Of a DNA stretch of 64,000 nucleotides, positions 22,673 through 62,437 are shown piece after piece. Source of the stretch: a virus (Duplodnaviria > Heunggongvirae > Uroviricota > Caudoviricetes); IMG/VR virus record IMGVR_UViG_3300031370_000003. One strand, written 5' to 3'. Position 1 is the first letter of the stretch, and each line of letters begins with the position of its first letter. A program made the position numbers and the translations under genes. A model generated the notes under the pieces. The model saw nothing but the letters and a program-made list of their open reading frames with translations. It was not told where the DNA came from and did no database searches.

Positions 22673-22681
22673 TTCTATATG

Positions 22682-22706
22682 AACCCGCTTCGGCGGGTTT
22701 TTTATT
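22682..22706 (+). terminator. rho-independent terminator
   Basis: ACCCGCTTCGGCGGGT hairpin then TTTTTATT. Confidence 0.75.
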
Positions 22707-22833
22707 CTCAAAATTCAGCTCATTGCCTACAGACTGGCCTTTACACCGTGGCCGCCCCGCATTAGGCTAATAGCCACATAAGAAAACAACTTGTTTTCAC
22801 ATAATTATTATTTCGCATAACAAGGAAACAAAA

Positions 22834-23499
22834 ATGGCTAAGATCATTGTGATTGGCGGCACCAAAGGTGGCCCCGGAAAATCTACGGTTGCGCAGCAGG
22901 TAGCCGGTGCGCTGGTTCTTAAAAAGCAGAAGAAATGTCACCTGACCGACATCGATGGGCAGATGACGACCGCAGGCTGGGCTGAAGAGCGCCGCGAAAA
23001 CGAAGACCTGGCACTTATTCCATTTGAGTTTGTGGATCATGACGTTGTAAAGCACATCAACGCGGTCAGCCAGCGCCATGACTTCGTGGTTATTGACGCC
23101 GGCGGCTTCGACTCCGAAATCCAGCGTCAGGCTATGCAGATGGCCGACATCATCCTTCTTCCGTTCCGCCCGAAGCGTCGTGACATTAAATCACTGCGTA
23201 ATCTCGACCCTGTTCTGGATAACGTGCGGAATACCAATCACAAGGTTCGAATCATTGGGGTGATGAACCAATGTCCATCCCTGCCAAACCAGGCTCAGCG
23301 CATCATTAACGCAAAAGGTGTGATCGAGTCATTTGGTATCGAGCCGGTGCCAGTAAACCTCTACACTCGTAACGTGTACGACGATGCAGAAGAGTCTGGC
23401 CGCACCATCTTTGAAATGACCGGTGCCGATCGCGATGCGAAGGCTGAAGCAGAAATTATCGAGCTGGTGGATTACCTGCTTAACCTGGAGGGTAAATAA
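22834..23499 (+). CDS. parA: ParA-family partition ATPase (small type Ib ParA)
   Basis: Deviant Walker A GGTKGGPGKST at the N-terminus; 221 aa; followed by a small partner ORF with ATGA-type overlap. Confidence 0.85.
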   Translation: MAKIIVIGGTKGGPGKSTVAQQVAGALVLKKQKKCHLTDIDGQMTTAGWAEERRENEDLALIPFEFVDHDVVKHINAVSQRHDFVVIDAGGFDSEIQRQAMQMADIILLPFRPKRRDIKSLRNLDPVLDNVRNTNHKVRIIGVMNQCPSLPNQAQRIINAKGVIESFGIEPVPVNLYTRNVYDDAEESGRTIFEMTGADRDAKAEAEIIELVDYLLNLEGK

Positions 23500-23891: not shown

Positions 23892-23951
23892 TATAAAATC
23901 TACCTAAAATAATAGTCCTGCGCCTTAAAATATCATAAGGCGCAATACAGA

Positions 23952-38468: not shown

Positions 38469-39599
38469 ATGCGCAGTGATTTTGATTTGGCTAAGGCAGC
38501 AGAGAACTGTTCCGCAGAGACGATCGCGTTTTTGCAGACCGTCATCGAGTCGCCGCTTGACCAGCTGGAAGATTTCAGTGATTCCGACCCGGCATTCAGG
38601 AAAGCATTCATGCTTTTCACTCGGCTATCTTTGTTAGTGACTCGCCGCCGACCCGAGCTTGGCGTCCACTGTATTTTGATACATGTTTTGCCTAAAATTG
38701 GCGATCTTCCTCTGTCCAAAATCACAAAAGTGGTCGTTAACCGGCTGACTAACCCGCTGATCATGGAAGGCAAAATTGTTCAGGGAAAACGTGTCTTTTC
38801 CATAATGAAGCAATTCCTAGCCTGGTGCGTGTTTCAGGGGTATCTGGAGAACTCACCAGTTGGCGACATTCCACTGAACAAAGTTGGTGGCTCAAACCCT
38901 AAGCCCAGGGAGCGCACTCTAACCGACGCTGAAATCTGGGTGTTCTGGCATGTATGGGATTACTTCGAAGTCTGCGAGGTGACGCGCTGGGCTGCCAGAT
39001 TGACGCTTGCTGCTGCTCGACGCCCTGACGAGATACTACGTGCAAAATCCGCTGAGTTTGACCTCACCAATAACATATGGAACCAGGGTCGTCGCAACAA
39101 GTCGAATCGAGACCACCGGTTGCCCATCAGCCCGATTATGAAACTCTGTATCGAACGGCTGCTTGCCGCGGGCGAGGGGAGCGAATGGCTATGCCCATCT
39201 AATAAGAAAGCGGGCCGACCGATGTCTAAGGTGGCCATCAGCCAATCTCTACGCCGAATCCTTGAAACACCTGAAATGCTTGCGCTTGAGCCTTTCACTC
39301 CGCGTGACCTCCGCAGGACTGCAAGAAGCTGCCTGGCAAGCTTGGATGTACCGAGTGACGTATCAAGAAAGGTTTTAAATCAAAGCCTTGAAGGCATAGA
39401 TCGTGTATACGATAGGCACGACTATATAGATCAAATGCAAGAAGCACTGTACAAATACTCAGTATTTTTGTTTAATATAGTCGAAAGCGAGGGGGTGGAG
39501 GATTTGAGCCACAAATACAAAGGCGACCGCCTGGATCTCTCAAACAGTCGCCTTGGGCTTGGTGTCGTTAATTTTCGATTGCGGCAAGTATCTTCTTGA
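38469..39599 (+). CDS. int: tyrosine site-specific recombinase (phage integrase family)
   Basis: C-terminal catalytic region with R (AARRPDEI), H-x-x-R (DHRLPIS), R-x-x-x-R (RDLRRTARS) and the terminal Y (RVYDRHDY). Confidence 0.75.
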   Translation: MRSDFDLAKAAENCSAETIAFLQTVIESPLDQLEDFSDSDPAFRKAFMLFTRLSLLVTRRRPELGVHCILIHVLPKIGDLPLSKITKVVVNRLTNPLIMEGKIVQGKRVFSIMKQFLAWCVFQGYLENSPVGDIPLNKVGGSNPKPRERTLTDAEIWVFWHVWDYFEVCEVTRWAARLTLAAARRPDEILRAKSAEFDLTNNIWNQGRRNKSNRDHRLPISPIMKLCIERLLAAGEGSEWLCPSNKKAGRPMSKVAISQSLRRILETPEMLALEPFTPRDLRRTARSCLASLDVPSDVSRKVLNQSLEGIDRVYDRHDYIDQMQEALYKYSVFLFNIVESEGVEDLSHKYKGDRLDLSNSRLGLGVVNFRLRQVSS

Positions 39600-40554: not shown

Positions 40555-42837
40555 ATGAAAAACAAACAAAAAATTAGAAAAGAGGTTCAGATATTTCTCG
40601 AAAGTATTCGCAAGGTTGTTGTCATGCTCTCCGGTAAAGACATTCCTGTGGCAGAACGTGGAAGCCGCGCATACGTCGAATACAACAAAGATGGGACGCC
40701 TTGCATGGTGAACCTACCTTCTCTGCCAGATGATGCCACTGATGGCCTCATGAACGCGATCCGTGGCTTCCTTGACCATGAAGTCGCCCACCTCCTTTTC
40801 ACCGACTCGAAGCTAGCATTTAAGCTACTCGAAAAGAAAGACAGCCCAGCTTTTCACCTCTGGAACGCTGTTGAAGACACCTTCATTGAACGACGCATGG
40901 GTGAGGTTTTTTCTGGCTCTAAACGCAACCTTGTCAACACGCAACGGCATGTAATTGAAAAACTTTTCGTTCCGAAAGTGGATGATGCACTAAAGGCTTT
41001 ATCACGTAACCCGCGGGATCTCTTTCTAAAGTTCCTGTTAATGCCAGCTTTACGTGCCTGGGCGGGACAAACGCCTTTTATTGAGTTCATGGAGCCGTAT
41101 TGGGCTTATGTTCGCGATCCTGTATCAAAACTAAGTAAAGGTGGTGTGCCGGCTGCTGTGCCAATGTTGATGAGCACCGAAGATTGCATCAAGCTGGCAG
41201 GCCGCATTTCACTGGCTTTAAAGGAAGAAATGGAGAAACCAGAAGGTGAATCTGGACATGGTGATTCGGAAGAAAATGATTCGCCTGGTTATGTAGGTAG
41301 TGAACAACCTACTAAATCAAATGATGAATCTGTTAGTGATAAGCCTGGCAGTGATGATGAGACGCAGGAAGAAGAAGAGCCTGCTCCTGTAAATAATAGT
41401 AATGAAGATAATATAAAAGATAAGGAAGAAGGCTCTGAATCAGATCCTGACTCCAGCAACGCTAATGACTCCCAGCCTAAAGATGGTGACGCTCACGAGG
41501 ATGACGCCCCAGCTACATCAGGTGATGGTGATGGTAAACCAGAAGGTGAAGAGGAATCTGATCAGTCTGAAGGGTTTGGTGGATTTGAGGGCGAGTCGGA
41601 CGACAATGAACCAGATAATGAGCAGCCTGAAAGTGGTTCGGGCGGTGCAGACGATACTGATTCAGCGGCCAACTCAGATGACCAACAAAGCACACCAGGT
41701 GATCTAGAACGTGATGGTCGTCAGGAAGCCACCCAGGGCGATCTAAACGAAGAAGATGGCGGTACTGGTGAAATTCCATTGGACGCAGCGTTTAAGGCGC
41801 TGGAAGGCACTGAGGTGGCTCCAGAGCAAGGCATGGAGGAAGCGCTCAACGAGGTAATGGCCAACGAGCTGAAAGGTGTGCCAAAAGGCTCATATCGCCC
41901 ATATCAACGCTCCTACGACTTTATTGGCCCGATTGATGAAGTTGAGAACCATCTCCGCAAAACTCATAAAGCTTTTGGCCGCATCCATCTTAACCGTGGT
42001 TTAAAGAACTGGCGTATCGACGACGAAGGCACCAGTTTATTTGCCTCGAATGTCGAGCGTCGTCTCGCTGATGGATCGGCCTCGACACTGGCCAAAGACC
42101 TTGAACGTGCCATTGCGAGTCGTAACAAAGTCCAGTTCCTACCTGGTCAACGTCGTGGAAAAGTGCATAGCGCCAATTTGTACCGACTGTCTATGAACGA
42201 TGACCGCGTATTCCGTCGCAAGGAAGACCATAAGGCAGTAAACGCTTGTGTGCAGCAGGTTATCGACTTGTCTGGCTCAATGCAGGGTTCGAAAATTTGT
42301 CTCGCTCTGGCCTGCGCCTACACAATTTCTGACGCGCTCGATCGCATAAATGTACCGAACATCATTACCGGGTTTACAACTGCAGGCTGTGACATCGATG
42401 CAGCAAGGAAGATGGGTCGCGGCTACAACCGCTATGAATCATTGATGCTCCCCACTATCAAGGGTTGGCACGAACGAGCAAACACGCCCACCACACGCAA
42501 ACGCTTAGGCTGCTTGTCAGAGAGATTCCCCCTTGAAGACAACATTGATGGTGAATCAATTATGGCTTTGGCTCAGCACTTTGCTGGCCGCACTGAGGAT
42601 AAGAAAATCATGCTTGTCATGAGTGATGGTGCGCCAGCTGGAATCGGTCATGACTTCAGCGACCATCTTAAAGCTGTGGCGGAGTCAATTGAAGGCAGTG
42701 GTCTTATCGATCTAATGGGTATCGGCATTCTTACGGATGCTCCCAGCCGGTTCTACAAGAACAACGTTGAGGTTAAAAAAGTGGAAGACCTGGGCGCCAC
42801 TGTCGTGAGGAAATTGTCTCAATTGATACTTGGCTAA
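40555..42837 (+). CDS. CobT-like protein: N-terminal helical domain, extreme acidic low-complexity linker, C-terminal von Willebrand factor A domain
   Basis: ~230-aa D/E/S/G-rich region (residues ~235-460); C-terminal VWA with MIDAS-like D-x-S-G-S (VIDLSGSMQG) and downstream T...D motifs; paired with a following AAA+ ATPase as in CobS/CobT. Confidence 0.6.
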   Translation: MKNKQKIRKEVQIFLESIRKVVVMLSGKDIPVAERGSRAYVEYNKDGTPCMVNLPSLPDDATDGLMNAIRGFLDHEVAHLLFTDSKLAFKLLEKKDSPAFHLWNAVEDTFIERRMGEVFSGSKRNLVNTQRHVIEKLFVPKVDDALKALSRNPRDLFLKFLLMPALRAWAGQTPFIEFMEPYWAYVRDPVSKLSKGGVPAAVPMLMSTEDCIKLAGRISLALKEEMEKPEGESGHGDSEENDSPGYVGSEQPTKSNDESVSDKPGSDDETQEEEEPAPVNNSNEDNIKDKEEGSESDPDSSNANDSQPKDGDAHEDDAPATSGDGDGKPEGEEESDQSEGFGGFEGESDDNEPDNEQPESGSGGADDTDSAANSDDQQSTPGDLERDGRQEATQGDLNEEDGGTGEIPLDAAFKALEGTEVAPEQGMEEALNEVMANELKGVPKGSYRPYQRSYDFIGPIDEVENHLRKTHKAFGRIHLNRGLKNWRIDDEGTSLFASNVERRLADGSASTLAKDLERAIASRNKVQFLPGQRRGKVHSANLYRLSMNDDRVFRRKEDHKAVNACVQQVIDLSGSMQGSKICLALACAYTISDALDRINVPNIITGFTTAGCDIDAARKMGRGYNRYESLMLPTIKGWHERANTPTTRKRLGCLSERFPLEDNIDGESIMALAQHFAGRTEDKKIMLVMSDGAPAGIGHDFSDHLKAVAESIEGSGLIDLMGIGILTDAPSRFYKNNVEVKKVEDLGATVVRKLSQLILG

Positions 42838-42934
42838 GTCATGCCGATGAAGATAAGTAGGCAGCTACTTATCTTTTTATCTTAAAATTATTACTATAAG
42901 CACCAGATAAACAAAAACGAGAAAGGAAAAGCAC

Positions 42935-44158
42935 ATGAGCGCCGTCCAAGTCCAAGACACCCCAGCGAAGGAAACCATCACCTGCCATTGGTGTTCTTGC
43001 GAGTTCCACCACCTGAAATCGCATCTGCAGGGCAAATGCACCGGCATTCCTGAAGAGCATAAGAGCAGTACCGTAGAAGACATCATCGCGGCATACACCA
43101 CTCAGTTCCCCGACGCCCCAACGATTTCACCTTTGGCCATTAAGACAATTCAGGCTCGTAAGCAGGAAATTCAAGTTGCTGAGAGCAAAGCACCGACCGT
43201 TAAGGTTGGCTACATCGGCACTGAGGAATACAAGGTGGAGATGGTGGCCGCACACGAGCTGCTTGGCGTGGATCTGAAAAATCTATCCACCGCGCTGAAC
43301 CAGCCCCTCAAGGTATCAGTGAACGTAAACACGCCATTCCCAGAGTTTGTACCGGTGGCCAAAGACAACTACGTATACGGTGACTTTGAGCTTATCAAAG
43401 ATGTTCTGATGATGATGGAGCTGGGCATTCCAGGCTATCTGTGGGGTCATGCAGGCACTGGCAAAACCTCTCTCCCAACTCAGCTTTGCGCCCTGATGAA
43501 TCGACCGGTCATCCGCTCTCAGCACACCGCTTCGACGGAAGAAGCGCATATCTCCGGGCAGATTCTGGCACGAGACGGCTCAACGTATTTCGAGCCAGGC
43601 TTGTTGGCGCTGGCAATGCGTCACGGCTGGGTATATCTGGCAGATGAATACGACTTTGCATTCCCTCAAATTTTGGGCATCTACCAGCCAGTGCTGGAGG
43701 GTGAAGGTCTTGTCATCAAAGAAGCTACCCCAGAGTGGCGCCGCGTTGCACCGCACAAACGTTTTGCTTTCATCGCCACCGGCAACACAAACGGATCGGG
43801 AGACGAAACAGGACTATATCAGGGTACAAACCTGCAGAACGCCGCCAACTTCTCTCGCTTTGGAATTGTCTCGAAAGTTCATTACATGAGCCAGCGCGCC
43901 GAAACCAACATGCTGGTTAAAGCAGGCGCTACAGATGATTTCGCTCAGAAGCTGGTGCGCTTCGCAACTCTTATTCGTGAAGGTTACGAAACCAGCGTGA
44001 TCTCACAACCAATTGGGCCGCGCGAGCTGCTGCTGTCTCTTCAAGTTGGTATTCGTCGCGGTGACATTCCAGCTGGTCTGCAACGCGCATTCATCAACAA
44101 ACTCCCTTCAGCGTCTGCCCAGGCAGCGCGCGAGATTGCGGATCGCATTTTCGTATGA
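42935..44158 (+). CDS. CobS/MoxR-like AAA+ ATPase (AAA_5 type)
   Basis: Walker A GHAGTGKTS, Walker B VYLADEYDF; N-terminal Cys/His cluster CHWCSCEFHHLKSHLQGKC. Confidence 0.65.
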   Translation: MSAVQVQDTPAKETITCHWCSCEFHHLKSHLQGKCTGIPEEHKSSTVEDIIAAYTTQFPDAPTISPLAIKTIQARKQEIQVAESKAPTVKVGYIGTEEYKVEMVAAHELLGVDLKNLSTALNQPLKVSVNVNTPFPEFVPVAKDNYVYGDFELIKDVLMMMELGIPGYLWGHAGTGKTSLPTQLCALMNRPVIRSQHTASTEEAHISGQILARDGSTYFEPGLLALAMRHGWVYLADEYDFAFPQILGIYQPVLEGEGLVIKEATPEWRRVAPHKRFAFIATGNTNGSGDETGLYQGTNLQNAANFSRFGIVSKVHYMSQRAETNMLVKAGATDDFAQKLVRFATLIREGYETSVISQPIGPRELLLSLQVGIRRGDIPAGLQRAFINKLPSASAQAAREIADRIFV

Positions 44159-48596: not shown

Positions 48597-49373
48597 TTAG
48601 GAAATTTCACCAACGATAACGTAGCCCGGAATATTTTTACTGCCTCCACTTGGAGTCCCTACTCCATATCTCATCGTCACTAAGTGACTTCCGCGCAAAT
48701 AAATTCGGGCGCCAGCAGCAAACACAATTTCTTTTTCATGACCTTGGTTGGTGTTTTTGTTTTTAAATATATAGGCTTTTGTCTTTGGGTCTTTAACCTT
48801 GAGTAAGGTTAGTTCGAGCCTTCCAGCATTTAAAGCATTAAAGTGCTTTTCAGCCAATCGAACACCTATTTGTGGGCATAGCGAGGTGGACAAAGGTCTC
48901 GTGGTGAAAAAGTCAGCTCCATTTCGGCTAAGCAACCCACCATGATAAACATATTGCCCATCAGGGAGGCATACTCCGACTTCATTGATTATTGAGTTAA
49001 CCTCTGGGTAATCATTACCGCTCTGATGACGTAATTGATAGTTCGACAAAGGTTTTGGAATTGCTGTAGGCATTGAACGTCTCCACTCAGCAAAGTTATT
49101 GTCCGTTTCAAGAAAATCATCAATATGTGACTCAATATCAGTGGCGCCGCGCTGCACCTGGTAAACAGCAGCTGCGTAGGGATCGTTAACTACAGCCAAT
49201 AGGCGTGTTCTGACGTCTCCCATTACGAAATGGTTATGTTGCCTGTAAAACGTTAAAAGTTCATCATGCGTCGGGCGGCGATGTTCCCACTCCTCAAAAG
49301 GATTCAGGAATGGGTTAACGATATTCAATGCTCCGCAATTACTGAGGATAAATTCTGATGCCATGATGAGCAA
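48597..49373 (-). CDS. hypothetical protein, partner of the adjacent nucleotidyltransferase (possible toxin/effector; weak ADP-ribosyltransferase-like motifs)
   Basis: Minus strand, overlaps the upstream NTase gene by 35 nt; contains YVYHGG, RPLSTSL and HEKE segments reminiscent of ART signature motifs (speculative). Confidence 0.4.
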   Translation of the reverse strand: MLIMASEFILSNCGALNIVNPFLNPFEEWEHRRPTHDELLTFYRQHNHFVMGDVRTRLLAVVNDPYAAAVYQVQRGATDIESHIDDFLETDNNFAEWRRSMPTAIPKPLSNYQLRHQSGNDYPEVNSIINEVGVCLPDGQYVYHGGLLSRNGADFFTTRPLSTSLCPQIGVRLAEKHFNALNAGRLELTLLKVKDPKTKAYIFKNKNTNQGHEKEIVFAAGARIYLRGSHLVTMRYGVGTPSGGSKNIPGYVIVGEIS

Positions 49374-49782
49374 TTACCCCAACAAACCCATGCTGCCCAA
49401 AGAAATTGAAGCCCGAGGTTTTATCAAAAATCACATCTAAAAGCCCACTGGAGGGTAATTCCGCATTGGCGAGAGCGAGGTCGTGAGTGAGGCGACTTTC
49501 AGACATTGAAATAAAATCAAATTTTACATGCTGATCGATTCCTTCATGCGGTAACCAATGCTTTAAGAGTGTTTCAAGGGCCTTGTGGGTTTTTGCCCAC
49601 TCATCACTACCATAACGACAAGCCAACTCATACACGGTGTCTTCAAAGACAAACACATAATCGTAATCTCTACCAGATCCTACCTGAGCCTGGCTACCAA
49701 CAAGGTAAATAGCCTTCAGAGGATTTCCAAGGTTCTGAGTTGCCGCCTTTACCACTAAATTATTGATTTGATTTAAGGACAT
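49339..49782 (-). CDS. minimal nucleotidyltransferase (Pol-beta superfamily MNT fold)
   Basis: Signature IYLVGSQAQVGSGRDYDYVFVFED (G-S ... D-x-D); 147 aa. Confidence 0.6.
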   Translation of the reverse strand: MSLNQINNLVVKAATQNLGNPLKAIYLVGSQAQVGSGRDYDYVFVFEDTVYELACRYGSDEWAKTHKALETLLKHWLPHEGIDQHVKFDFISMSESRLTHDLALANAELPSSGLLDVIFDKTSGFNFFGQHGFVGVIAHHGIRIYPQ

Positions 49783-55968: not shown

Positions 55969-56317
55969 CATCGAAGGTATCAAATGGGTGGCTGATGGCG
56001 AGCCAAATTTCTACACCCTGGTTGCTGGCAAGAACTGGTTCGGAAAACTCCAGCTTAACGGAGAGATTCACACCGTCGCTCAGGAGAAGTTTTTAAATGG
56101 CCTGTTCCCACACTTGAAAGAAGAGGCGAGCAAGTCAGCAACGCCTCTCACACCGGTAGAAATCATCCAAATCATGATCGATTGGCTGGAGTGTAACGTG
56201 GACATGGGCGCACCTATCATCTTTGACAATGATGATGACAACACGGATTCGGCAAAAGCCTTGCCAGCTATGTATGAAGCGCTGCGCATCCTTCGAGGCA
56301 TAGGGGAGCAATCTTGA
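55961..56317 (+). CDS. hypothetical protein
   Basis: ATG 55961 overlaps the previous stop; 118 aa. Confidence 0.35.
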   Translation: MSNIEGIKWVADGEPNFYTLVAGKNWFGKLQLNGEIHTVAQEKFLNGLFPHLKEEASKSATPLTPVEIIQIMIDWLECNVDMGAPIIFDNDDDNTDSAKALPAMYEALRILRGIGEQS

Positions 56318-56657
56318 CTGTGGTATGCGAAAGCGTGTGGCCTGGCGTCGATTGGTTCACTCCGGGTAAGGAGTATAGCGGTGTGTCAGATTCTGATGGC
56401 CAGGCGCTGCATACCACTGACGACTTTGGCGAGGATGCCCTGATCTTCATTGACCATTCTCACCACGGCATCTTCAAAACTAAGAAGGATTAACTGATGG
56501 CAAGACAGCATAAAGATGACAAGGCAGCTGAGCGCCAGAGATGGATTGCAGAAGGCGTAGAACTCGCCATAAGTCACCTTGAAAGATCTGACTTTGGTGA
56601 AGAAAACGACATTCGCCTACTTCGCGAATTATCTACAAAACTCAAAAAGGAAATGCC

Positions 56658-57104
56658 ATGACCAGTAAACCAAAGGGAAGCGCTCTTGCAGCGCTTTACA
56701 GCGCTTCTAACGCTGCGCTTGATGAAGTAGACCAGTTAAGAGCGGATGGCTTCCCGCAGCCATTGTGGGCTGAATCCATGCGTACTGCGATTGGGGAAAT
56801 GGGCGCGCCCGATGTGGCTGAGAATGAGCAGCCCTGGCAAAAACTGATCCGCGTGTATGCCGAAGATATTGGGCCGACACCGGAACCAGAGCAGGCATTG
56901 CTGCTGAAGCTGTTCAAGGAGGCGGGTGAAAACTTACCAATTTGGCCAGGCACTTGCCATGAGGTGTTTCATTCGCAATTTAGAAAGATCGACATCTTTG
57001 AAAATTCCGTTGAGAGCAAAGAGGCAATCGTCTGGTTTCTTCTTCACCTCGATGATTGCTTCCCCCGCGTAGCCGCGAAAATGTGGCCTGTAGATAAAGA
57101 TTAA
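56658..57104 (+). CDS. hypothetical protein
   Basis: 148-aa ORF; preceded by a 54-aa ORF (56497..56661) with ATGA overlap. Confidence 0.4.
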   Translation: MTSKPKGSALAALYSASNAALDEVDQLRADGFPQPLWAESMRTAIGEMGAPDVAENEQPWQKLIRVYAEDIGPTPEPEQALLLKLFKEAGENLPIWPGTCHEVFHSQFRKIDIFENSVESKEAIVWFLLHLDDCFPRVAAKMWPVDKD

Positions 57105-57164
57105 TCGCCTTTTTAAGTTAAATATAATTAAGTAACCAACAACTTATAATAAGGGTATAAACAC

Positions 57165-57434
57165 ATGAAAACGCTTGTCAGAATCCACTCAAGTTGTGAC
57201 TTCTCAGTCTTCCCTCTTTTCATCGTTGAAGCAGAGAATGAAGAGTCAATGGACGAGGCCATTGAACGCGCTATTAACCGATGCACCGGTTATGAAGATG
57301 ACCAGATAACCGTTGACGATAGCAATGTGCGCTGGCGCGGTAGCCAATGCTGGTATCAGGAAGACACGCAACCGCTTTCCAATGAGGATGCAGAAACACT
57401 GGTGAGGATCTTATCGTTAGAAACCTACAGCTAA
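57165..57434 (+). CDS. hypothetical protein
   Basis: 89-aa ORF with AAACACATG context. Confidence 0.4.
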   Translation: MKTLVRIHSSCDFSVFPLFIVEAENEESMDEAIERAINRCTGYEDDQITVDDSNVRWRGSQCWYQEDTQPLSNEDAETLVRILSLETYS

Positions 57435-57635
57435 CACTTTCCTTACATTTCAAAAATAGGTTACTATCTACCTATCTTATGGGGTTCGCATGACAGTAGC
57501 TTTGCAATTAACCTCTCTCCTTCTGGTAGTTTTATGCCATCAGTTGAAGAAAGCCTTCGAGCCAATGCCCGGGCGCATTTATTACGCCTTCATGCTCAGC
57601 ACCGCATTATTCATGTTTCTTTCACCGGTGCTGAA

Positions 57636-58001
57636 ATGAAGTGGGTCCCGTTAACCGCATTAATGATGCTTCCCGCTTTAGTCCAGGCTAACGATCTGAA
57701 AACGTTGCAGTGTCACGCTGCAATCATTCATTCAGCGGGCCAGCGAATCACTGGAGTTTCAGAGCGCATGACCGGTGCGCTGGTCGTTGACAGCGGTATG
57801 GAGTTTTACGCGCTGCTCGACTCTAAGGTTTACAAGTCTCCCCCGCTGAAATCGCGGAAGAAGATGAAATTTGGTGTTGGCTCGGATGGCCAGACCTTTA
57901 TTAAAAAGGATGCCGTGTACAGCGTGTCTTCTCAGGACACCAGTATCATATTTGACGAGTGTTCCGAGGTTAGTAATGATTTACACCATGCAGAAAAGTG
58001 A
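57636..58001 (+). CDS. secreted/periplasmic protein (signal peptide)
   Basis: MKWVPLTALMMLPALVQA signal peptide; start chosen at ATG 57636 within ORF 57534..58001. Confidence 0.4.
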   Translation: MKWVPLTALMMLPALVQANDLKTLQCHAAIIHSAGQRITGVSERMTGALVVDSGMEFYALLDSKVYKSPPLKSRKKMKFGVGSDGQTFIKKDAVYSVSSQDTSIIFDECSEVSNDLHHAEK

Positions 58002-58199
58002 GATCCAAAAAGAGAGCGGTTACTGGCGCGCAAAGGGCTTTAAGCGTGAAGGGAACGAAGAGCTTCTGGATCGCTGGGACTGCACCATCACCTTCAAGCG
58101 CAAGCAGTGGCAGCACTTCGATAAGCTGAAAAACGAAATGACGATCACTGCACCGACACTCTTTGGGCTTCTTAAGAAAATCATCTAACTGGTTATCAA

Positions 58200-58460
58200 G
58201 AATTGACTGAGGTATGTGGCTATTACATACCGCAGTCAATGGCATTTGCCGAAGTACGCAACTCTACATACCGCAGTCAAGAAATCACATATTCTGGTTG
58301 GTTCAGGGTGGTTTTCATTGACTGCGGTATGCATATTACGTATCGCAGTCAAGATGGGATGTGAGACGCATATCTCAGTGAAGATTGCATACCGCAGTCA
58401 ACATCACATACCGCAGCAAATAAACCGCATATCGCAGTCAATAAACTGCATACCTCAGTC
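58200..58460. repeat. iteron array (about 10 copies of CATACCGCAGTCAA-like 14-mers, both orientations)
   Basis: Copies at ~58204, 58226, 58266, 58318 (inverted), 58340, 58388, 58406, 58425, 58444; irregular spacing; directly downstream of the RepA-like gene. Confidence 0.7.
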
Positions 58461-59478
58461 AATTTTCGGGTTTGGATTTAGCGAGAGCTTCTGCCAGTTT
58501 GACGGGATCTATACCTGCAGTTTTCAAAGCCTTAATGACTTCGTCGTAGTTCTCTTCTGACGGCGGCTGCTCTTCAACCTTTTGTTTAGGCAGCTTAGAA
58601 GTCTGGATCAGCTTCGGATTGCGGTAGTGAACGACGAAGAAGGTGGAGTTTCCGCGTTTAGTTTCGGTGTATTCGAGGTACCCGATTTCTTTCAGTTGTT
58701 CCATGGCCTTTCTAACAGTGTGATTTTGCGTGTAAACGCTTGAAGTCAGGTTAAGCCGGTCACGAAGGCGCTTCATCGAAATGGGAGCGTGGTTCTGGGG
58801 TAGACTTTCAATGAAGGTGTATAGAGCCTGGGCTGATTCTTTGCGTGGCAGTGCATCAATGGCTTTAAGTCGAAGCAGCACACGCCTGTCCATGTCATAA
58901 AGTTCGAAGAGCTTAGGCTCAGCTTCAATTTCAACAACGTTTTCAACGACATCGTATGAAGCTGATTTTACCAGGTGTGTCACCCACCCTTTCGTATCGT
59001 TCTGGAACTTAAGCGTTACGGATGCCAATTTGAACAGGGAGTTACTGATACGATCTCGCATCTTCTGGTTGGAACGCCGGCTATCGAACCCACACATTTT
59101 AACGAACTCGACAAACGTGAGCTTAAGCGCACTTCCCTGCACCCCATGCTCAGCCATTGAGCGAACGATCCCCAGCCATACCTTGAAATCAGTGTCCATA
59201 TCCAAACGTGACCCTGTAATTTTCACGTCGTTGTAGCCTTCGCTCTTGGCTATGGACAACTGGACAAGTTCTTCGGTCGCATCTGTGATATTTTTACGGT
59301 TAGTCTTGCTCTTACTCGTTGATTTTAGGGTAGGTACAAACAGGCCGAGACGCATGAGAGGTACCGGCTGAACAGTGCTGGAGCTGTTAATATCCAGTGA
59401 AACGATCTCACCTGTCGATTTGTTTGTTTCTTCCAAATTCATCGGTAAGGTTTTGGATTTCTTGACCATTTTATGCAC
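58459..59478 (-). CDS. replication initiator (RepA-like, iteron-binding) candidate
   Basis: 339-aa minus-strand ORF flanked on both sides by arrays of the same 14-mer; basic N-terminus; no other plausible binding protein nearby. Confidence 0.55.
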   Translation of the reverse strand: MHKMVKKSKTLPMNLEETNKSTGEIVSLDINSSSTVQPVPLMRLGLFVPTLKSTSKSKTNRKNITDATEELVQLSIAKSEGYNDVKITGSRLDMDTDFKVWLGIVRSMAEHGVQGSALKLTFVEFVKMCGFDSRRSNQKMRDRISNSLFKLASVTLKFQNDTKGWVTHLVKSASYDVVENVVEIEAEPKLFELYDMDRRVLLRLKAIDALPRKESAQALYTFIESLPQNHAPISMKRLRDRLNLTSSVYTQNHTVRKAMEQLKEIGYLEYTETKRGNSTFFVVHYRNPKLIQTSKLPKQKVEEQPPSEENYDEVIKALKTAGIDPVKLAEALAKSKPEN

Positions 59479-59494
59479 CAGCAGTTGTTCACAT

Positions 59495-59625
59495 GCCGTA
59501 AGTGTAACTGCATATCTCAGTCAAGGTAAATACATACCGCAGTTAATGGATTTGCGTACCGCAGTTGGTAGGTTCACATGTCGCAGTCATGATTCTGCAC
59601 ACTACAGTCAAGATCGATCCTGTCT
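59495..59625. repeat. second iteron array (about 5 degenerate copies)
   Basis: GCATATCTCAGTCAAGG, ACATACCGCAGTTAATGG, GCGTACCGCAGTTGGT, ACATGTCGCAGTCATG, CACACTACAGTCAAGA upstream of the RepA-like gene. Confidence 0.6.
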
Positions 59626-59811
59626 CAGCCCTGTGGTGGCGTGGGTTTGCGGCGATCGGGGATCTCTTTTGGATCTCCATTGGGATCACTTTAGGATCAA
59701 TTTATTGGATCGACACTGTGGAAATTGGGGATAAGCAAAACAGGCAGTTGCAGCCTAACGCCAAATTTATGCGTTACAGTCGCAAATATTTCCACCAGCA
59801 AGAGTAGACCA

Positions 59812-60456
59812 ATGGATCTTAAACGAACACGCTGGGTTCGCCGTCTCGAAGATGGCACCTATGCCATTGAGCCAGACAGCAAACTTAACTCCCAGAAAGA
59901 ACTATGCGACCTCTGTGGAATTGCATCAAAATGCCCAATTAACGAGGCACGGCATAAGTTCAAGGCTACAGGAGCTGACTTCCACTTAAATTCTTGTCTG
60001 CGGTATGTGCCGCTTATCGCGTTTCGTAAACCGATCATCGGATTGAATGAGCCTTACTTCAACACGCTCCGAAGCGGAGTTACCTGGGTTAGCCGTGTAG
60101 AGCCAGGCAAAATCGTGTGTCTGGTAGACGCAGCGAACGGAGAGCGAATCAGGTTCGCAAAAGTGGATCGAGTATGTTCGGGGCCCTACGAAGAAATGCT
60201 TCGAAAACACAGCCGATTCAACCACCTTTGCATGGGTGGTGAAAGCGTCGAAAAGGTTTCTGAAGTAATCCGTAAATCCTATGGGCATTTTCTGAAGCCT
60301 GATAGTCAGCTGACGGCCATTTATCTGCGGAGCATCAGCCGTGAACATGACGTTGAATATCACACGGATCATGAACTTGAGTTAGAAGATCCTCGGGCAA
60401 AAGCACCAGTGATAGATATGGCCTCGCTTCGCAGAAAGCACGAGAAAACGATTTGA
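59812..60456 (+). CDS. hypothetical protein
   Basis: 214 aa from ATG 59812 (track ORF begins at 59725). Confidence 0.4.
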   Translation: MDLKRTRWVRRLEDGTYAIEPDSKLNSQKELCDLCGIASKCPINEARHKFKATGADFHLNSCLRYVPLIAFRKPIIGLNEPYFNTLRSGVTWVSRVEPGKIVCLVDAANGERIRFAKVDRVCSGPYEEMLRKHSRFNHLCMGGESVEKVSEVIRKSYGHFLKPDSQLTAIYLRSISREHDVEYHTDHELELEDPRAKAPVIDMASLRRKHEKTI

Positions 60457-60529
60457 ACCTATAAGATGGGTGAACGTACCAGAGCTTACGTTCACCCTCT
60501 TAGAAAAGCGTACAGCGGGCTTGTGCTAT

Positions 60530-60898
60530 CTACCGCTCAATCAAATCGCCATCCCCATTCATCCACATGCCATCAGCCAAATAAACCCACTCATCTGGAT
60601 CATCGGTGACTCGCAGATCTTCATAGAGCGAAGTCAGGTCGCTACCAACAATCATTTGTTTGTATTTGTTGTAATTTCTCCGAACGTCGTAATAAGTTTC
60701 AACATCGTAATCCTGTTCCCTCAGCTCATCATCTGAAGAGACATTTAGAGTTTTCTTTAGGCCTACTATGTTGAAGATCCATTTTAAGCCGTTTTTGACA
60801 TAGTATGCCGACGTATAGGCGTCCTCGTCTGGCACACGTTCATAACCAAGTTTTAATGCGATCTGAATTTGTTCAGTCACTGAAAGCACAATTGCCAT
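60530..60898 (-). CDS. hypothetical acidic protein
   Basis: 122-aa minus-strand ORF, convergent with the previous gene across a hairpin (60468-60497). Confidence 0.4.
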   Translation of the reverse strand: MAIVLSVTEQIQIALKLGYERVPDEDAYTSAYYVKNGLKWIFNIVGLKKTLNVSSDDELREQDYDVETYYDVRRNYNKYKQMIVGSDLTSLYEDLRVTDDPDEWVYLADGMWMNGDGDLIER

Positions 60899-61118
60899 TA
60901 TGATCCCTATTATGCTGTGTAAAACATCATCTTAGAGCGCCTTTGCTATGGAGTTAAGAAATTTAAAACTTGTCCCTCCTGATAGTAGGTAGTTAGCTAC
61001 TTATAAATATTGCATAATAGCCAGCCTGCGAACCAACCCAATAGCCTATAGCTCTGAATTGATGGCCTATTCAGTGTTGGTAACATTGCGTTGAATTTAT
61101 AACAAGCTGGAAGAACAC

Positions 61119-62204
61119 ATGACTATACCATATGGCGTGATCTCTGATCCCCACTACCACAACTGGAATACTTTCGCGGTTTCTGACGCCAACGGGCTTA
61201 ATTCCCGCCTGGCCATTCTGCTTGAATCGACAAAGGAAGCTGCGATTGCCATCAAAGAGGCTGGCGCAAAGCATCTGCTTGTTGCAGGTGACACGTTCCA
61301 TGTACGCGGCACTATAACGCCATCTGTACTGCACTACGTGACGGAAGCCTACAAGTGGATCATCAATGAGCTTGGCCTGGAAGTGGTCATGCTGGCCGGC
61401 AACCACGACCTCGAAACCAACGATTCTGTCTACAGCGCTAACGCAGCTGCCTCACTGCAGTCGATCGGGGTGCATATCGTTTGTGGGCAGCAGCCGTTCA
61501 GCATTGAAGTTGGTGATGTGAATGTTCATTTCATCAGCTGGCGTAACTCCCACGCCGAGCTTTTGAGTGATATGAAGGCGTTGCGAAATCGTCTTGAGGG
61601 CGACAACCACGACATCATCATTCATACCTCAGTCAATAAAGCGATTCCTACCATGCCCGATGTGGGCATCGATGCGCAGGAGCTGAAGGACATTGGCTTC
61701 CGCCTTGTTTTGTCTGGTCATTACCATAACCACAAAGAAGTCCTGCCCGGTGTCGTCAGTGTAGGTGCGTTAACGCACCAGAATTGGGGTGATGTAGGGA
61801 CTTTGGCCGGCTACATGATCGTACAGCCAGATGGCAGTTTTACCCAGCATGAAACCTCCGCTCCAAAGTTCGTCAATCTCGAAGAGGGCGTTGATGACAG
61901 CGAAGTACGCGGCAATTACGTTCGTTTCTACGCGACTATTGAAGCCGACGAAGAAGGCGTGAAGATAAAAAACACCCTCAACTCCATGGGCGCCAAAGGC
62001 GTCGTGTGCAACTTCGTTCGTAAATCCTCAATGATGACCGGCTCCGCCAGCACTTCTGCAACGTCAAAGATAGATAGCCTTGGAGAGTCAGTAAGCGCTT
62101 ACTGTCAGATCATGCACGACACTGACGGCGGTTTTGATGTAAAGGCATTGGGCGCCCTTTGCAGCGACATCCTGCTTGAAGCGGAAACCGGAACTTCAGA
62201 ATGA
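61119..62204 (+). CDS. sbcD: SbcD/Mre11-family nuclease
   Basis: Calcineurin-like phosphoesterase motifs LVAGDTFH, LAGNHD, GHYH; 361 aa. Confidence 0.8.
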   Translation: MTIPYGVISDPHYHNWNTFAVSDANGLNSRLAILLESTKEAAIAIKEAGAKHLLVAGDTFHVRGTITPSVLHYVTEAYKWIINELGLEVVMLAGNHDLETNDSVYSANAAASLQSIGVHIVCGQQPFSIEVGDVNVHFISWRNSHAELLSDMKALRNRLEGDNHDIIIHTSVNKAIPTMPDVGIDAQELKDIGFRLVLSGHYHNHKEVLPGVVSVGALTHQNWGDVGTLAGYMIVQPDGSFTQHETSAPKFVNLEEGVDDSEVRGNYVRFYATIEADEEGVKIKNTLNSMGAKGVVCNFVRKSSMMTGSASTSATSKIDSLGESVSAYCQIMHDTDGGFDVKALGALCSDILLEAETGTSE

Positions 62205-62437
62205 TCACCGGCAAATACCAGTGGGCTGTGAATATCCTGAACAACGGAGGGACGGTCACACTCCATCGTTTTACATACCGCAGTGAACGAGTGCGCTACA
62301 AGCTCAACCGTCTTTATCGTGACGGAGTCTTAGATCGCGCTTTGTACAAAACTCACCTGGAGTTTCGTCTCAAGAAAGATCAGCCAAAGCTGACTAACCT
62401 GGCATCCAAAATAAAACATACAGAGAAAAGCACATGA
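62201..62437 (+). CDS. small hypothetical protein
   Basis: 78 aa, ATGA overlaps on both sides. Confidence 0.3.
   Translation: MITGKYQWAVNILNNGGTVTLHRFTYRSERVRYKLNRLYRDGVLDRALYKTHLEFRLKKDQPKLTNLASKIKHTEKST

What the first reader, a model, noticed from the sequence alone, without database searches (positions are those of the whole stretch)
58200..59625. Plasmid-type iteron origin with RepA-like initiator inside a phage genome
About 15 copies of a 14-mer (CATACCGCAGTCAA and variants, both orientations) flank a minus-strand 339-aa gene on both sides. This is the classic architecture of iteron-controlled theta replicons. Together with the ParA system at 22.8 kb, it argues the element is maintained as a plasmid prophage (phage-plasmid), while also carrying a full DnaB / primase / PolIII / SSB lytic replication suite.
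Basis: partly seen in the sequence, partly recalled or inferred. Interest (0 to 1): 0.6.

Follow-up and report, generated by a model that had tools for sequence, protein, structure and literature searches.

The report
P1/RepFIB-type plasmid replicon in phage-plasmid
This is the plasmid-maintenance replication unit (an initiator gene flanked by its repeated binding sites, next to a DnaA/Dam-site origin) of an SSU5-like phage that lives as a roughly 110-kb plasmid; it is a correct call but an ordinary, already well-understood kind of replicon.

Summary
Fifteen copies of the iteron TTGACTGCGGTATG flank a minus-strand gene. Five helically phased copies lie upstream (59511-59611) and ten irregularly spaced copies lie downstream (58203-58462). 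The gene is probably 336 aa, starting at ATG 59469. Its product passes Pfam's curated cut-offs for both Rep_3 initiator domains. It is 48.5% identical to phage P1 RepA, 57% to SSU5 RepA and about 79% to RepA of IncFIB-typed Klebsiella and Enterobacter plasmids.

Upstream of the five iterons lie a GC-rich spacer, the densest GATC cluster in the window and two tandem DnaA-box-like 9-mers (59612-59734). This stretch aligns with the annotated P1 oriR. The layout therefore matches P1 in order: DnaA boxes, Dam sites, incC-like iterons, repA, incA-like iterons.

The window also carries tail genes, a ParA-like ATPase and phage replisome genes. Its closest complete relatives are circular, non-mobilizable 109-kb plasmids with terminase, portal and capsid genes. 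SSU5-group phage-plasmids are already known to be mostly IncFIB. This is a new member of a known kind, of low interest.

Two minor points are less ordinary: conserved solitary iterons inside flanking genes, and a mosaic boundary in the GATC region.

The parts
58459..59469 (-). repA: a Rep_3-family (WH1+WH2) replication initiator of 336 aa plus stop. The mechanical ORF extends to GTG 59478 (339 aa).
   Evidence: Pfam Rep3_N and Rep3_C both score above their curated cut-offs; PHROG 775 at 2.4e-127. tblastn identity is 97.9% to the Rep of two circular 109-kb plasmids, about 79% to IncFIB-typed plasmids, 57.5% to SSU5 RepA and 48.5% to P1 RepA. dN/dS is 0.02-0.03 against the two close relatives.
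59511..59611 (-). Origin (incC-like) iteron array. Five copies of TTGACTGCGGTATG-like 14-mers sit at 59598, 59577, 59555, 59533 and 59511, spaced 21-22 bp (one helical turn x2). The array ends 41 bp before the repA ATG.
   Evidence: IncFIB plasmids have iterons in the same five slots with the same core, and P1 has its five incC iterons at the same place.
59612..59653 (-). GC-rich spacer (about 60% GC) between the iterons and the GATC repeats, carrying two adjacent GATC sites (59612, 59616).
   Evidence: It aligns with the GC-rich spacer of P1 oriR.
59654..59711 (-). Relatively A+T-rich block with six GATC sites at 7-13 bp intervals (59654, 59661, 59672, 59684, 59695, 59708), mostly as GATCC. 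It is the presumed Dam-methylated unwinding region.
   Evidence: Eight GATC in 105 bp is the densest cluster in the window (next best 3; Poisson about 3e-5 after correction). The block aligns with the five annotated Dam sites of P1 oriR and with IncFIB plasmids.
59717..59734 (-). Two abutting DnaA-box-like 9-mers: TTATCCCCA (59734-59726, 1 mismatch to TTATCCACA) and ATTTCCACA (59725-59717, 2 mismatches).
   Evidence: Read from the sequence. They occupy the same position as the annotated tandem DnaA site of P1 oriR (TTATCCACA and TTATCCACT).
59485..59493 (+). Degenerate proximal DnaA box (TTGTTCACA, 2 mismatches) between the iterons and the repA start.
   Evidence: The two IncFIB plasmids have a perfect TTATCCACA in this slot and P1 has CTATCCACA. 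This is weak evidence in the window itself.
58203..58462 (-). Control (incA-like) iteron array of ten copies with irregular 19-51 bp spacing. Two copies are inverted (58203, 58318). The proximal copy overlaps the repA stop codon.
   Evidence: The P1 incA array (nine copies, mixed orientation) also starts at the repA stop codon. Copy number varies between close relatives: the Cronobacter plasmid has nine.
59994..60007 (+). Solitary iteron (TTGTCTGCGGTATG, 1 mismatch) inside the divergent 214-aa gene, 538 bp upstream of the repA ATG.
   Evidence: It is unchanged in eight relatives. SSU5-type homologues encode almost the same peptide (I in place of L) with different codons.
61623..61636 (+). Solitary iteron (CATACCTCAGTCAA, identical to two bona fide array copies) inside the SbcD-like metallophosphoesterase gene.
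   Evidence: It is partly explained by the conserved peptide HTS(V/I)N.
62274..62287 (+). Solitary iteron (CATACCGCAGTGAA, 1 mismatch).
57787..57800 (+). Solitary iteron (TTGACAGCGGTATG, 1 mismatch) inside the 155-aa ORF 57534-58001.
56314..56327 (+). Solitary iteron (TTGACTGTGGTATG, 1 mismatch), less conserved than the others.
   Evidence: It is present in the window and pCP102 only.
22834..23499 (+). ParA/MinD-class P-loop ATPase (221 aa), the likely partition ATPase, 35 kb from the replicon. It is followed by an overlapping 130-aa ORF (23499-23891) with no family hit.
   Evidence: PHROG 164 ParA-like at 1.3e-43. Pfam MipZ, AAA_31 and CbiA score above their cut-offs. No centromere-like repeats were found.

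Best explanation
The region 58203-59734 is a complete iteron-controlled theta replicon of the P1 oriR/RepFIB class. It most likely serves as the plasmid-prophage maintenance replicon of an SSU5-supercommunity siphovirus phage-plasmid.

Reading along the repA (minus) strand, the order is:
- two tandem DnaA boxes;
- an A+T-richer block of six GATC (Dam) sites;
- a GC-rich spacer;
- five helically phased iterons;
- repA;
- ten irregularly spaced control iterons that begin at the repA stop codon.

The mechanism below is inferred from what is established for P1 and FIB/FIA replicons. RepA monomers bind the five origin iterons. Together with host DnaA on the adjacent boxes they open the GATC-rich block, where the host DnaB helicase is loaded. 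Full Dam methylation licenses the origin, and hemimethylation after firing delays re-initiation. RepA bound to the origin iterons also represses its own promoter. The downstream array titrates RepA and pairs with origin iterons in cis or in trans (handcuffing). This holds copy number low and sets incompatibility.

What is shown here: the sequence anatomy, the family membership of the protein, the DNA-level homology of the origin to P1 oriR and IncFIB origins, purifying selection, and the extrachromosomal state of close relatives. What is inferred: binding, origin firing, autoregulation, copy control and Dam dependence.
For: - Iterons: 15 copies in two arrays, far above chance.
- Protein family: Rep3_N and Rep3_C both score above Pfam's cut-offs, and the product is homologous to P1/P7 RepA and RepFIB initiators.
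- Origin layout: the annotated P1 record has the same order and near-identical distances. DnaA boxes start at -277 in P1 and -265 here. Dam sites span -254..-203 in P1 and -242..-188 here. The five iterons span -160..-57 in P1 and -142..-42 here. In both, the downstream array starts at the stop codon.
- DNA homology: the GATC/DnaA block aligns with P1 oriR at 73.7% over 95 bp by blastn.
- Shared iterons: IncFIB-typed plasmids share the iteron core and slots.
- Selection: repA dN/dS is 0.02-0.03. The 342-bp origin intergenic region is 94-95% identical without indels, while synonymous sites differ by 24-32%.
- Phage context: tail and replisome genes are present, and tail genes are closest to SSU5.
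- Relatives: they are circular, non-mobilizable 109-kb plasmids with terminase, portal and capsid genes and a single annotated Rep. No contig carrying the exact RepA exceeds 200 kb.
- Literature: SSU5-supercommunity phage-plasmids are mostly IncFIB (PMC7969092, PMC11652158). In FIB replicons the upstream iterons belong to the origin and the downstream block exerts control and displacement, consistent with handcuffing (PMC11983097). P1 uses DnaA-box arrays flanking its unwinding element (PMC4980987).
Against: - No experiment shows replication, RepA binding or Dam dependence for this element.
- No sigma-70 consensus promoter was found within or next to the origin iterons, so autorepression by promoter occlusion is only an analogy.
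- Both distal DnaA boxes deviate from consensus, and the proximal box is degenerate compared with the IncFIB plasmids.
- MOB-suite gives no replicon type for the two closest plasmids.
- The partition ATPase lies 35 kb away, with no identified partner or centromere.
- A tyrosine recombinase is present.
- Structural confirmation failed: there were no PDB sequence hits and the single-sequence model was poor.
Confidence: 0.9

Rival explanations
1. The same RepA/iteron origin also, or instead, starts lytic (phage-mode) replication and recruits the element's own DnaB-like helicase, primase and PolIII-like polymerase. On this view there is no purely plasmid-mode origin paired with a separate lytic origin as in P1 (oriR versus oriL).
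For: The element encodes its own replisome. No second initiator is annotated in the complete relative pCP102. There are weak PHROG hits to DnaD-like loader and O-like initiator families.
Against: The origin anatomy (DnaA boxes, Dam sites, control array) is that of a host-dependent, copy-limited replicon. Ten control iterons would work against run-away lytic replication. Many genes of the element remain unannotated, so a separate lytic initiator cannot be excluded.
Confidence: 0.12
2. The replicon is a decaying or auxiliary relic, like the weakly expressed FIB replicon of F. The element would be maintained by another mechanism, such as integration through its tyrosine recombinase or an unrecognised replicon.
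For: A tyrosine recombinase is present at 38469-39596. The DnaA boxes are imperfect. No consensus repA promoter was found. The F-FIB replicon is known to be poorly functional (PMC11983097).
Against: repA dN/dS is 0.02-0.03 and the origin is more conserved than synonymous sites. The exact protein is seen on many contigs, none of chromosome size. Complete relatives are circular plasmids with only this Rep annotated. The repA position is syntenic across SSU5-like phage-plasmids.
Confidence: 0.04
3. The protein is a transcription factor and the repeats are an operator array controlling neighbouring genes.
For: Winged-helix proteins can be repressors. There are weak sub-threshold HTH and HrcA hits. 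Solitary repeat copies sit in or near flanking genes.
Against: Both Rep_3 domains pass their curated cut-offs. The protein is 48.5% identical to the biochemically defined P1 initiator. The repeats are joined to a DnaA-box and GATC origin homologous to P1 oriR. Repression of its own gene is part of the initiator model, not an alternative to it.
Confidence: 0.02

Closest known systems
Phage P1 plasmid replicon (oriR-incC / repA / incA)
   Same: The order and spacing of elements match: tandem DnaA boxes, a GATC (Dam) repeat block, a GC-rich spacer, five origin iterons at 21-22 bp, repA, and a control array of 9-10 mixed-orientation iterons starting at the stop codon. RepA is 48.5% identical. The DnaA/GATC block aligns at the DNA level.
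   Different: The iteron sequence differs: TTGACTGCGGTATG here against the 19-bp GATGTGTGCTGGAGGGAAA in P1, implying a different specificity and incompatibility. RepA here is 50 aa longer, mainly through a C-terminal tail. There are six plus two GATC sites instead of five. In P1 parAB-parS lies directly after incA, whereas here the ParA-like gene is 35 kb away. The host phage is an SSU5-like siphovirus, not a P1-like myovirus.
RepFIB / IncFIB(K)-type replicons of conjugative Klebsiella and Enterobacter plasmids
   Same: These are the closest non-phage relatives. RepA is about 79-80% identical. They share the iteron core, the five origin slots, the GATC block and the downstream array. DNA homology covers window 58427-59720 at about 71%. 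In FIB replicons the upstream iterons belong to the origin and the downstream ones to control (PMC11983097).
   Different: Those plasmids are conjugative or mobilizable, and sopAB-type partition genes lie next to the replicon in L006. They have a perfect proximal DnaA box where the window has a degenerate one, and extra iterons at -360 to -600. Here the replicon sits in a phage genome. Whether it is incompatible with IncFIB(K) plasmids is untested.
Replicons of SSU5 and SSU5-like phage-plasmids (SSU5_pHCM2, pKpn, pSLy3 and pMT1 groups; typed IncFIB)
   Same: The genomic slot is the same: small genes, then repA on the opposite strand, then the 214-aa gene, then SbcD/SbcC-like genes. The architecture is the same. 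Tail genes are most similar to SSU5. Relatives are circular, non-mobilizable plasmids of about 105-120 kb.
   Different: RepA is only 52-57% identical, and the iteron is different (ACCACTGTAGNGAG). SSU5-type elements carry a duplicated DnaA/GATC-plus-iteron unit about 375 bp apart and about 13 downstream iterons at <=2 mismatches. DNA homology to the window covers the flanks and the GATC/DnaA block but only 300 bp of repA.
Mini-F ori2 / RepE / incC (FIA) and other Rep_3 iteron plasmids (pPS10, R6K, pSC101)
   Same: They share the Rep_3 WH1-WH2 initiator class, origin iterons plus a control array, DnaA dependence and the handcuffing model (PMC11983097, PMC4980987).
   Different: There is no detectable sequence match to solved RepE, pi or RepA chains. 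They lack the P1-type GATC-repeat unwinding block.

Membership tests
Rep_3 initiator family (Pfam PF01051 Rep3_N / PF21205 Rep3_C) | N-terminal WH1 domain matching Rep3_N above the gathering score | tested here: met
   41.8 bits against a cut-off of 22.4, E 1.7e-10, residues 117-223.
Rep_3 initiator family (Pfam PF01051 Rep3_N / PF21205 Rep3_C) | C-terminal WH2 domain matching Rep3_C above the gathering score | tested here: met
   24.6 bits against a cut-off of 21.1, E 3e-5, residues 234-285.
Rep_3 initiator family (Pfam PF01051 Rep3_N / PF21205 Rep3_C) | Tandem winged-helix three-dimensional fold like RepE, pi or pPS10 RepA | tested here: inconclusive
   There were no PDB sequence hits with the single sequence or with a 6-member profile. 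The single-sequence AlphaFold model had pLDDT 40.3 and was unusable.
Rep_3 initiator family (Pfam PF01051 Rep3_N / PF21205 Rep3_C) | Directly repeated binding sites (iterons) adjacent to the gene | tested here: met
   There are 15 copies in two arrays. Binding itself was not tested.
P1 oriR / RepFIB-type replicon | RepA homologous to P1/P7 RepA and RepFIB RepA over most of its length | tested here: met
   48.5% identity over 80% of the query to P1 and P7, and 79% over 99-100% to IncFIB-typed plasmids.
P1 oriR / RepFIB-type replicon | Five origin iterons at about 21-bp phasing immediately upstream of repA | tested here: met
   Spacings are 21, 22, 22 and 22 bp at -142 to -42 from the ATG. P1 incC is annotated at the equivalent place.
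P1 oriR / RepFIB-type replicon | repA promoter embedded in the origin iterons (autoregulation) | tested here: inconclusive
   The consensus scan found no sigma-70-like site in 59470-59620. The P1 promoter is annotated inside incC.
P1 oriR / RepFIB-type replicon | Cluster of GATC (Dam) repeats forming the A+T-richer unwinding block beyond a GC-rich spacer | tested here: met
   There are eight GATC in 59612-59711, the densest cluster in the window. GC is 0.38 in the block and 0.60 in the spacer. The block aligns with the five annotated P1 Dam sites.
P1 oriR / RepFIB-type replicon | DnaA boxes at the distal end of the origin | tested here: met
   TTATCCCCA and ATTTCCACA abut each other at 59717-59734, in the slot of P1's tandem boxes. 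Both are imperfect.
P1 oriR / RepFIB-type replicon | Downstream control array (incA / E-K repeats) starting at the repA stop codon, with mixed orientation and irregular spacing | tested here: met
   Ten copies at 58203-58462 with 19-51 bp spacing, two inverted. The P1 equivalent is shown.
P1 oriR / RepFIB-type replicon | Autonomous low-copy replication, incompatibility exerted by the arrays, and dependence on Dam, DnaA and chaperones | not testable with these tools
   These need cloning and in vivo or in vitro assays.
IncFIB incompatibility/replicon type | Typed as IncFIB by a replicon-typing scheme | tested here: inconclusive
   MOB-suite (via PLSDB) gives no replicon type for the two 93%-identical plasmids. 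The 79%-identical plasmids and the SSU5-like plasmids are typed IncFIB.
IncFIB incompatibility/replicon type | Shares iteron sequence with IncFIB-typed replicons | tested here: met
   The same TTGACTGCGGTATG core occupies the same slots in L005 and L006. It is not shared with the SSU5-type IncFIB elements.
SSU5-supercommunity phage-plasmid | Siphovirus structural and replication genes related to SSU5 | tested here: met
   PHROG tail, DnaB, ligase and polymerase hits. The tail region is 66% identical at the DNA level to SSU5 as best phage hit. The complete relative has terminase, portal and capsid genes.
SSU5-supercommunity phage-plasmid | Circular extrachromosomal element of about 100-120 kb with a plasmid replicase and a partition ATPase | tested here: met
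   This holds for relatives: NZ_CP017663 (109,007 bp) and NZ_CP104015 (109,870 bp) are circular and non-mobilizable. No contig carrying the exact RepA exceeds 200 kb. The window's own topology cannot be read from 64 kb.
SSU5-supercommunity phage-plasmid | Production of infectious virions | not testable with these tools
   One SSU5-like Klebsiella plasmid was reported to be packaged in membrane vesicles rather than phage particles (PMC8969562), so functionality cannot be assumed.
ParABS partition system | ParA/MinD-class Walker ATPase | tested here: met
   PHROG 164 at 1.3e-43. MipZ, AAA_31 and CbiA score above their cut-offs.
ParABS partition system | Centromere-binding partner and repeated centromere site | tested here: inconclusive
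   The overlapping 130-aa ORF has no Pfam hit. No convincing repeats were found in 22600-24000.

The most novel reading that the evidence does not exclude
The five solitary iterons within +/-3.2 kb of the replicon may be functional distal RepA sites. Three lie inside identified protein-coding genes, including the SbcD-like nuclease gene and the divergent 214-aa gene. In the 214-aa gene the site has been written into coding sequence by lineage-specific codon choice. Such sites could extend titration or handcuffing (DNA looping) beyond the classical incC/incA arrays, or couple RepA occupancy to expression of adjacent phage recombination genes. Separately, the iteron-plus-repA specificity module seems to have been exchanged between phage-plasmids and conjugative IncFIB plasmids, with the universally conserved GATC/DnaA block as the crossover point.
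Probability: 0.25. Interest if true: 0.4.

Novelty: new member of a known kind. Interest (0 to 1): 0.18.

Why it matters
The result confirms that this element is a phage-plasmid and gives base-level coordinates for its origin, initiator and copy-control array. These are useful for annotation, replicon typing, predicting incompatibility with IncFIB(K) resistance and virulence plasmids, and designing curing cassettes or mini-replicons. It adds no new principle, because P1- and RepFIB-type replicons and IncFIB-typed SSU5-like phage-plasmids are already well described. The only leads beyond routine are the conserved solitary iterons in flanking coding sequence and the evidence that the iteron/repA specificity module is mosaic relative to the phage backbone. 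Both bear on how phage-plasmids and plasmids swap replicons and so change compatibility.

Tried and rejected
- Megablast of the replicon against the phage collection found nothing. Protein-level and distant searches were needed.
- NCBIfam gave only sub-threshold noise.
- PDB sequence searches found nothing, with the single protein or with a 6-sequence profile.
- The single-sequence AlphaFold2 model had mean pLDDT 40.3, so it was discarded and not fold-searched.
- The promoter scan found no consensus sigma-70 site in the origin iterons, and inspection by eye found no convincing -10 at proper spacing from the TTGACT of the iterons.
- Folding the origin as single-stranded DNA was no better than shuffles (z 0.71), so there is no evidence for a structured single-strand origin.
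- Rfam and tRNA scans of the whole window were empty, so there is no sign of an antisense-RNA-type control.
- No centromere-like repeats were found near the ParA-like gene, and the 130-aa partner ORF has no Pfam hit.
- I tested whether solitary iterons are general to the family. None were found in the SSU5, SSU5-like or P1 loci using their own iteron sequences.
- The SbcD site is partly explained by a conserved peptide, because it is within 2 mismatches in an element that uses a different iteron.
- I looked for a Pycsar-like defence pair seen in relatives at the equivalent window position. PADLOC gave no hit.
- The transcription-factor/operator reading was considered and rejected (see rivals).
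Full report
**1. Observation**

The 14-mer CATACCGCAGTCAA has 23 matches at up to 3 mismatches in the window, on either strand. One hundred dinucleotide-preserving shuffles gave 5.07 +/- 2.10, with a maximum of 10. At up to 1 mismatch there are 13 matches, against none in 30 shuffles.

On the strand of the gene (window minus strand) the repeat reads TTGACTGCGGTATG. Weak extra conservation gives (t)aTTGACTGcGgTATGca.

- The upstream array has five copies starting at 59598, 59577, 59555, 59533 and 59511. Their spacings are 21, 22, 22 and 22 bp. The 59555 copy has 4 mismatches but keeps the register.
- The downstream array has ten copies between 58203 and 58462, spaced 19-51 bp. Two are inverted (58318 and 58203). 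The copy nearest the gene overlaps its stop codon.

So [quoted passage not shown] is correct.

The mechanical ORF runs 58459..59478 (339 aa from GTG). The probable start is ATG 59469, giving 336 aa. RefSeq annotates that start in two 97.9%-identical proteins. The exact 336-aa product is on record in 27 index blocks, of which 24 contigs were read. The GTG is not conserved in the Klebsiella IncFIB relative, which instead has a Shine-Dalgarno-like GAGG there.

**2. The protein**

Pfam gives Rep3_N (WH1) at E 1.7e-10 and 41.8 bits (cut-off 22.4). It gives Rep3_C (WH2) at E 3e-5 and 24.6 bits (cut-off 21.1). PHROG 775, whose label "replication helicase" also sits on the RepA genes of P1, P7 and SSU5 in the RefSeq phage records, matches at 2.4e-127.

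tblastn identities are as follows:

| Subject | Identity |
|---|---|
| RepB-family initiators on two circular 109-kb plasmids (Cronobacter sp. JZ38 NZ_CP017663; Enterobacter sp. CP102 NZ_CP104015) | 97.9% |
| Initiators of thousands of Klebsiella, Enterobacter and E. coli plasmids | about 79-80% |
| Phage SSU5 RepA | 57.5% |
| P1 and P7 RepA | 48.5% |

MOB-suite types the sampled members of the 79-80% group as IncFIB. A six-way alignment shows conservation along the whole WH1-WH2 body. The window protein and the IncFIB plasmids share a C-terminal tail that P1 lacks.

**3.

The 342-bp intergenic region between repA (ATG 59469) and a divergent 214-aa gene (ATG 59812) holds more than the five iterons. 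Reading away from repA:

- A GC-rich spacer of about 60% GC, with two GATC sites at 59612 and 59616.
- A relatively A+T-rich block (GC 0.38) with six more GATC sites at 59654-59711, mostly as GATCC at 7-13 bp intervals.
- Two abutting DnaA-box-like 9-mers: TTATCCCCA (59734-59726) and ATTTCCACA (59725-59717).

Eight GATC in 105 bp is the densest cluster in the window. The next best is 3, and the Poisson probability is about 3e-5 after correcting for the number of windows.

The fully annotated P1 record lists the same series. It has a tandem DnaA site, five Dam methylation sites, five incC iterons at 21-bp spacing with PrepA inside them, repA, and nine incA iterons of which the first begins at the last base of repA.

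Distances from the ATG nearly coincide:

| Feature | P1 | Window |
|---|---|---|
| DnaA boxes start | -277 | -265 |
| GATC block | -254 to -203 | -242 to -188 |
| Origin iterons | -160 to -57 | -142 to -42 |

MAFFT aligns the DnaA/GATC block column by column among the window, its two close relatives, two IncFIB plasmids and P1. blastn finds window 59653-59745 matching P1 oriR at 73.7%.

The IncFIB plasmids have a perfect DnaA box between the iterons and the ATG, and P1 has CTATCCACA there. The window has only a degenerate TTGTTCACA at 59485-59493. P1 is known to use DnaA-box arrays on both sides of its unwinding element (PMC4980987).

**4. Constraint**

Against the two 93%-identical plasmids, repA has pS 0.24-0.32 and pN 0.008, so dN/dS is 0.02-0.03. 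The non-coding 342-bp origin is 94-95% identical with no indels, which makes it better conserved than synonymous sites.

The number of control iterons varies. The Cronobacter plasmid lacks one 19-bp unit and has nine.

**5. Context**

The window encodes the following:

- a tape measure protein, a J-like central tail protein and a tail fibre;
- a ParA-like ATPase (22834-23499);
- a DnaB-like helicase, an ATP-dependent ligase and a split PolIII-alpha-like polymerase;
- a gp32-like SSB, a RecA-like protein and a weak DnaG-like hit;
- a tyrosine recombinase (38469-39596).

Window 1-25000 is 90% covered at 91.6% identity by the circular 109,870-bp plasmid pCP102. That plasmid's annotation includes terminase large subunit, portal, major capsid, tail genes, one Rep, one MipZ/ParA-like ATPase and one integrase.

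The best phage match to the tail region is SSU5, at 66% DNA identity. In SSU5 and in SSU5-like plasmids of E. coli, Enterobacter, Salmonella and Citrobacter, repA sits in the same slot next to the 214-aa gene and the SbcD/SbcC-like genes. The two of these plasmids fetched in full (L013, L014) are circular, non-mobilizable and typed IncFIB.

None of the contigs carrying the exact RepA exceeds 200 kb.

The published surveys agree. SSU5-supercommunity phage-plasmids are about 107-111 kb siphophage-type elements, and most that can be typed are IncFIB (PMC7969092; PMC11652158; PMC8969562).

**6. Mechanism**

Shown here:

- the anatomy of the region;
- the protein's family membership;
- homology of the origin to P1 oriR and to IncFIB origins;
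- purifying selection;
- the extrachromosomal state of relatives.

Inferred from established work on P1, F and FIB replicons:

- RepA monomers on the five phased iterons, with host DnaA on the adjacent boxes, open the GATC-rich block so that DnaB can be loaded.
- Dam methylation licenses the origin, and hemimethylation after firing delays re-initiation.
- RepA at the origin iterons represses its own, probably weak, promoter.
- The downstream array titrates RepA and pairs with origin iterons in cis and in trans (handcuffing). This sets low copy number and incompatibility.

For FIB replicons, the downstream block alone displaces a resident replicon while the upstream block does not (PMC11983097).

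No consensus sigma-70 promoter was detected in the iteron region, so the autoregulation step rests on analogy only.

**7. Family and novelty**

The region works like a P1 oriR/RepFIB replicon, and by sequence it is a member of that class (see the membership table). Its iteron core and RepA are closest to IncFIB(K)-type conjugative plasmids, not to SSU5. SSU5 uses a different iteron, ACCACTGTAGNGAG, and has a duplicated origin unit.

Homology breakpoints support a mosaic:

- IncFIB plasmids match only window 58427-59720.
- SSU5-type elements match the flanks and 59653-60323, but only 300 bp of repA.
- The two homologies overlap in the GATC/DnaA block, which even P1 shares.

This suggests an old exchange of the specificity module (iterons plus repA), with the conserved unwinding block as the joint. 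That is an inference. All the identities are about 70%, so the event, if real, is not recent.

Overall this is a new member of a known kind.

**8. Solitary iterons (side finding)**

Five further copies with one mismatch lie at 56314, 57787, 59994, 61623 and 62274. All matches at up to 2 mismatches in the 64 kb fall within 56314-62287. The first 100 kb of pCP102 has none outside the replicon neighbourhood.

Four of the five are unchanged (0/14 differences) in both 93%-identical relatives, while their 300-bp flanks differ by 5-9%. These four are also present in six further contigs.

- The 59994 site lies in the 214-aa gene. It encodes SCLRYV as TCT TGT CTG CGG TAT G. SSU5-type homologues encode SCIRYV as AGC TGC ATA CGT TAC G.
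- The 61623 site lies in the SbcD-like gene and encodes HTSVN. It is identical to two genuine array copies. The homologous position in an element using the other iteron is already within 2 mismatches, so coding constraint explains part of this match.

No solitary copies of their own iterons were found in the SSU5, SSU5-like or P1 loci. The IncFIB plasmids do have extra iterons 360-600 bp upstream of repA.

Function as distal RepA sites is possible but unproven.

**9. Verdict**

The feature is the ordinary, well-understood maintenance replicon of an SSU5-like phage-plasmid, here mapped to base resolution. Interest is low.

Noticed in passing
window 56314-56327, 57787-57800, 59994-60007, 61623-61636, 62274-62287: Five solitary iteron copies with 1 mismatch lie outside the two arrays. 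All are within about 3.2 kb of the replicon, and three lie inside identified coding sequences. Four are invariant in relatives whose flanks differ by 5-9%. In the 214-aa gene the site arises from lineage-specific codon choices.
   Followed up: partly
window 58427-59720 versus 59653-60323; loci L002, L005, L006, L013, L014: DNA homology to IncFIB conjugative plasmids covers only the iterons, repA and the GATC block. Homology to SSU5-type phage-plasmids covers the flanks and the GATC/DnaA block but barely repA. This suggests a swapped iteron/repA specificity module with the junction in the conserved unwinding block.
   Followed up: partly
L002 (SSU5) 2300-2930 and 4025-4630; also L013 and L014: SSU5-type elements carry two copies of the DnaA-box/GATC block, each with its own set of upstream iterons, about 375 bp apart. 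They also have about 13 downstream iterons (<=2 mismatches) in both orientations, so the origin is duplicated.
   Followed up: partly
window 58369-58420 versus L001: The control-iteron number is polymorphic among close relatives. The Cronobacter plasmid lacks one 19-bp unit (nine copies instead of ten), and one metagenomic contig (L007) has a better-matching copy in one slot.
   Followed up: no
window 59741-59757 (minus strand): A terminator-like stem-loop plus T-run sits immediately upstream of the DnaA boxes in the repA direction. P1 has a comparable GC-rich hairpin plus T-run at the aligned position. It may insulate the origin from incoming transcription.
   Followed up: no
window 38469-39599 (+): This ORF is a tyrosine recombinase (Pfam Phage_integrase, 33 bits against a cut-off of 27.1), annotated 'site-specific integrase' in pCP102. 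It could be a Cre-like dimer resolvase or an integrase, which bears on whether the element ever integrates.
   Followed up: partly
window 31924-33114 (-) and 33193-33960 (+): An AbiC/AbiP-like abortive-infection protein (Pfam putAbiC 2.3e-20; PADLOC AbiP 1.3e-11) lies next to a Colicin M-like protein (Pfam 9.5e-28). These look like accessory defence and competition genes in the phage-plasmid.
   Followed up: partly
window 23499-23891 (+): A 130-aa ORF overlaps the stop of the ParA-like gene (ATGA). It has no Pfam hit and no nearby centromere-like repeats were found, so the partition partner and site remain unidentified.
   Followed up: partly
L009, L011 and L012 (relatives), 15.7-21 kb and 2-3.8 kb of the loci: The regions flanking the conserved replicon neighbourhood vary between contigs that carry the identical RepA. 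Variable content includes PycTM plus a 257-aa gene, a DpnII/MboI-type enzyme, a phage Dam methyltransferase, and nrdAB present or absent. The equivalent window ORFs (48600-49782) gave no PADLOC hit.
   Followed up: partly
window 40555-44158 (+): A CobT-like 760-aa protein (PHROG 1576, cobaltochelatase-like) is followed by an AAA_5 (dynein-related/MoxR-like) ATPase, annotated 'porphyrin biosynthesis protein' and 'AAA family ATPase' in pCP102. This is a conserved pair of unknown role in SSU5-like elements.
   Followed up: no
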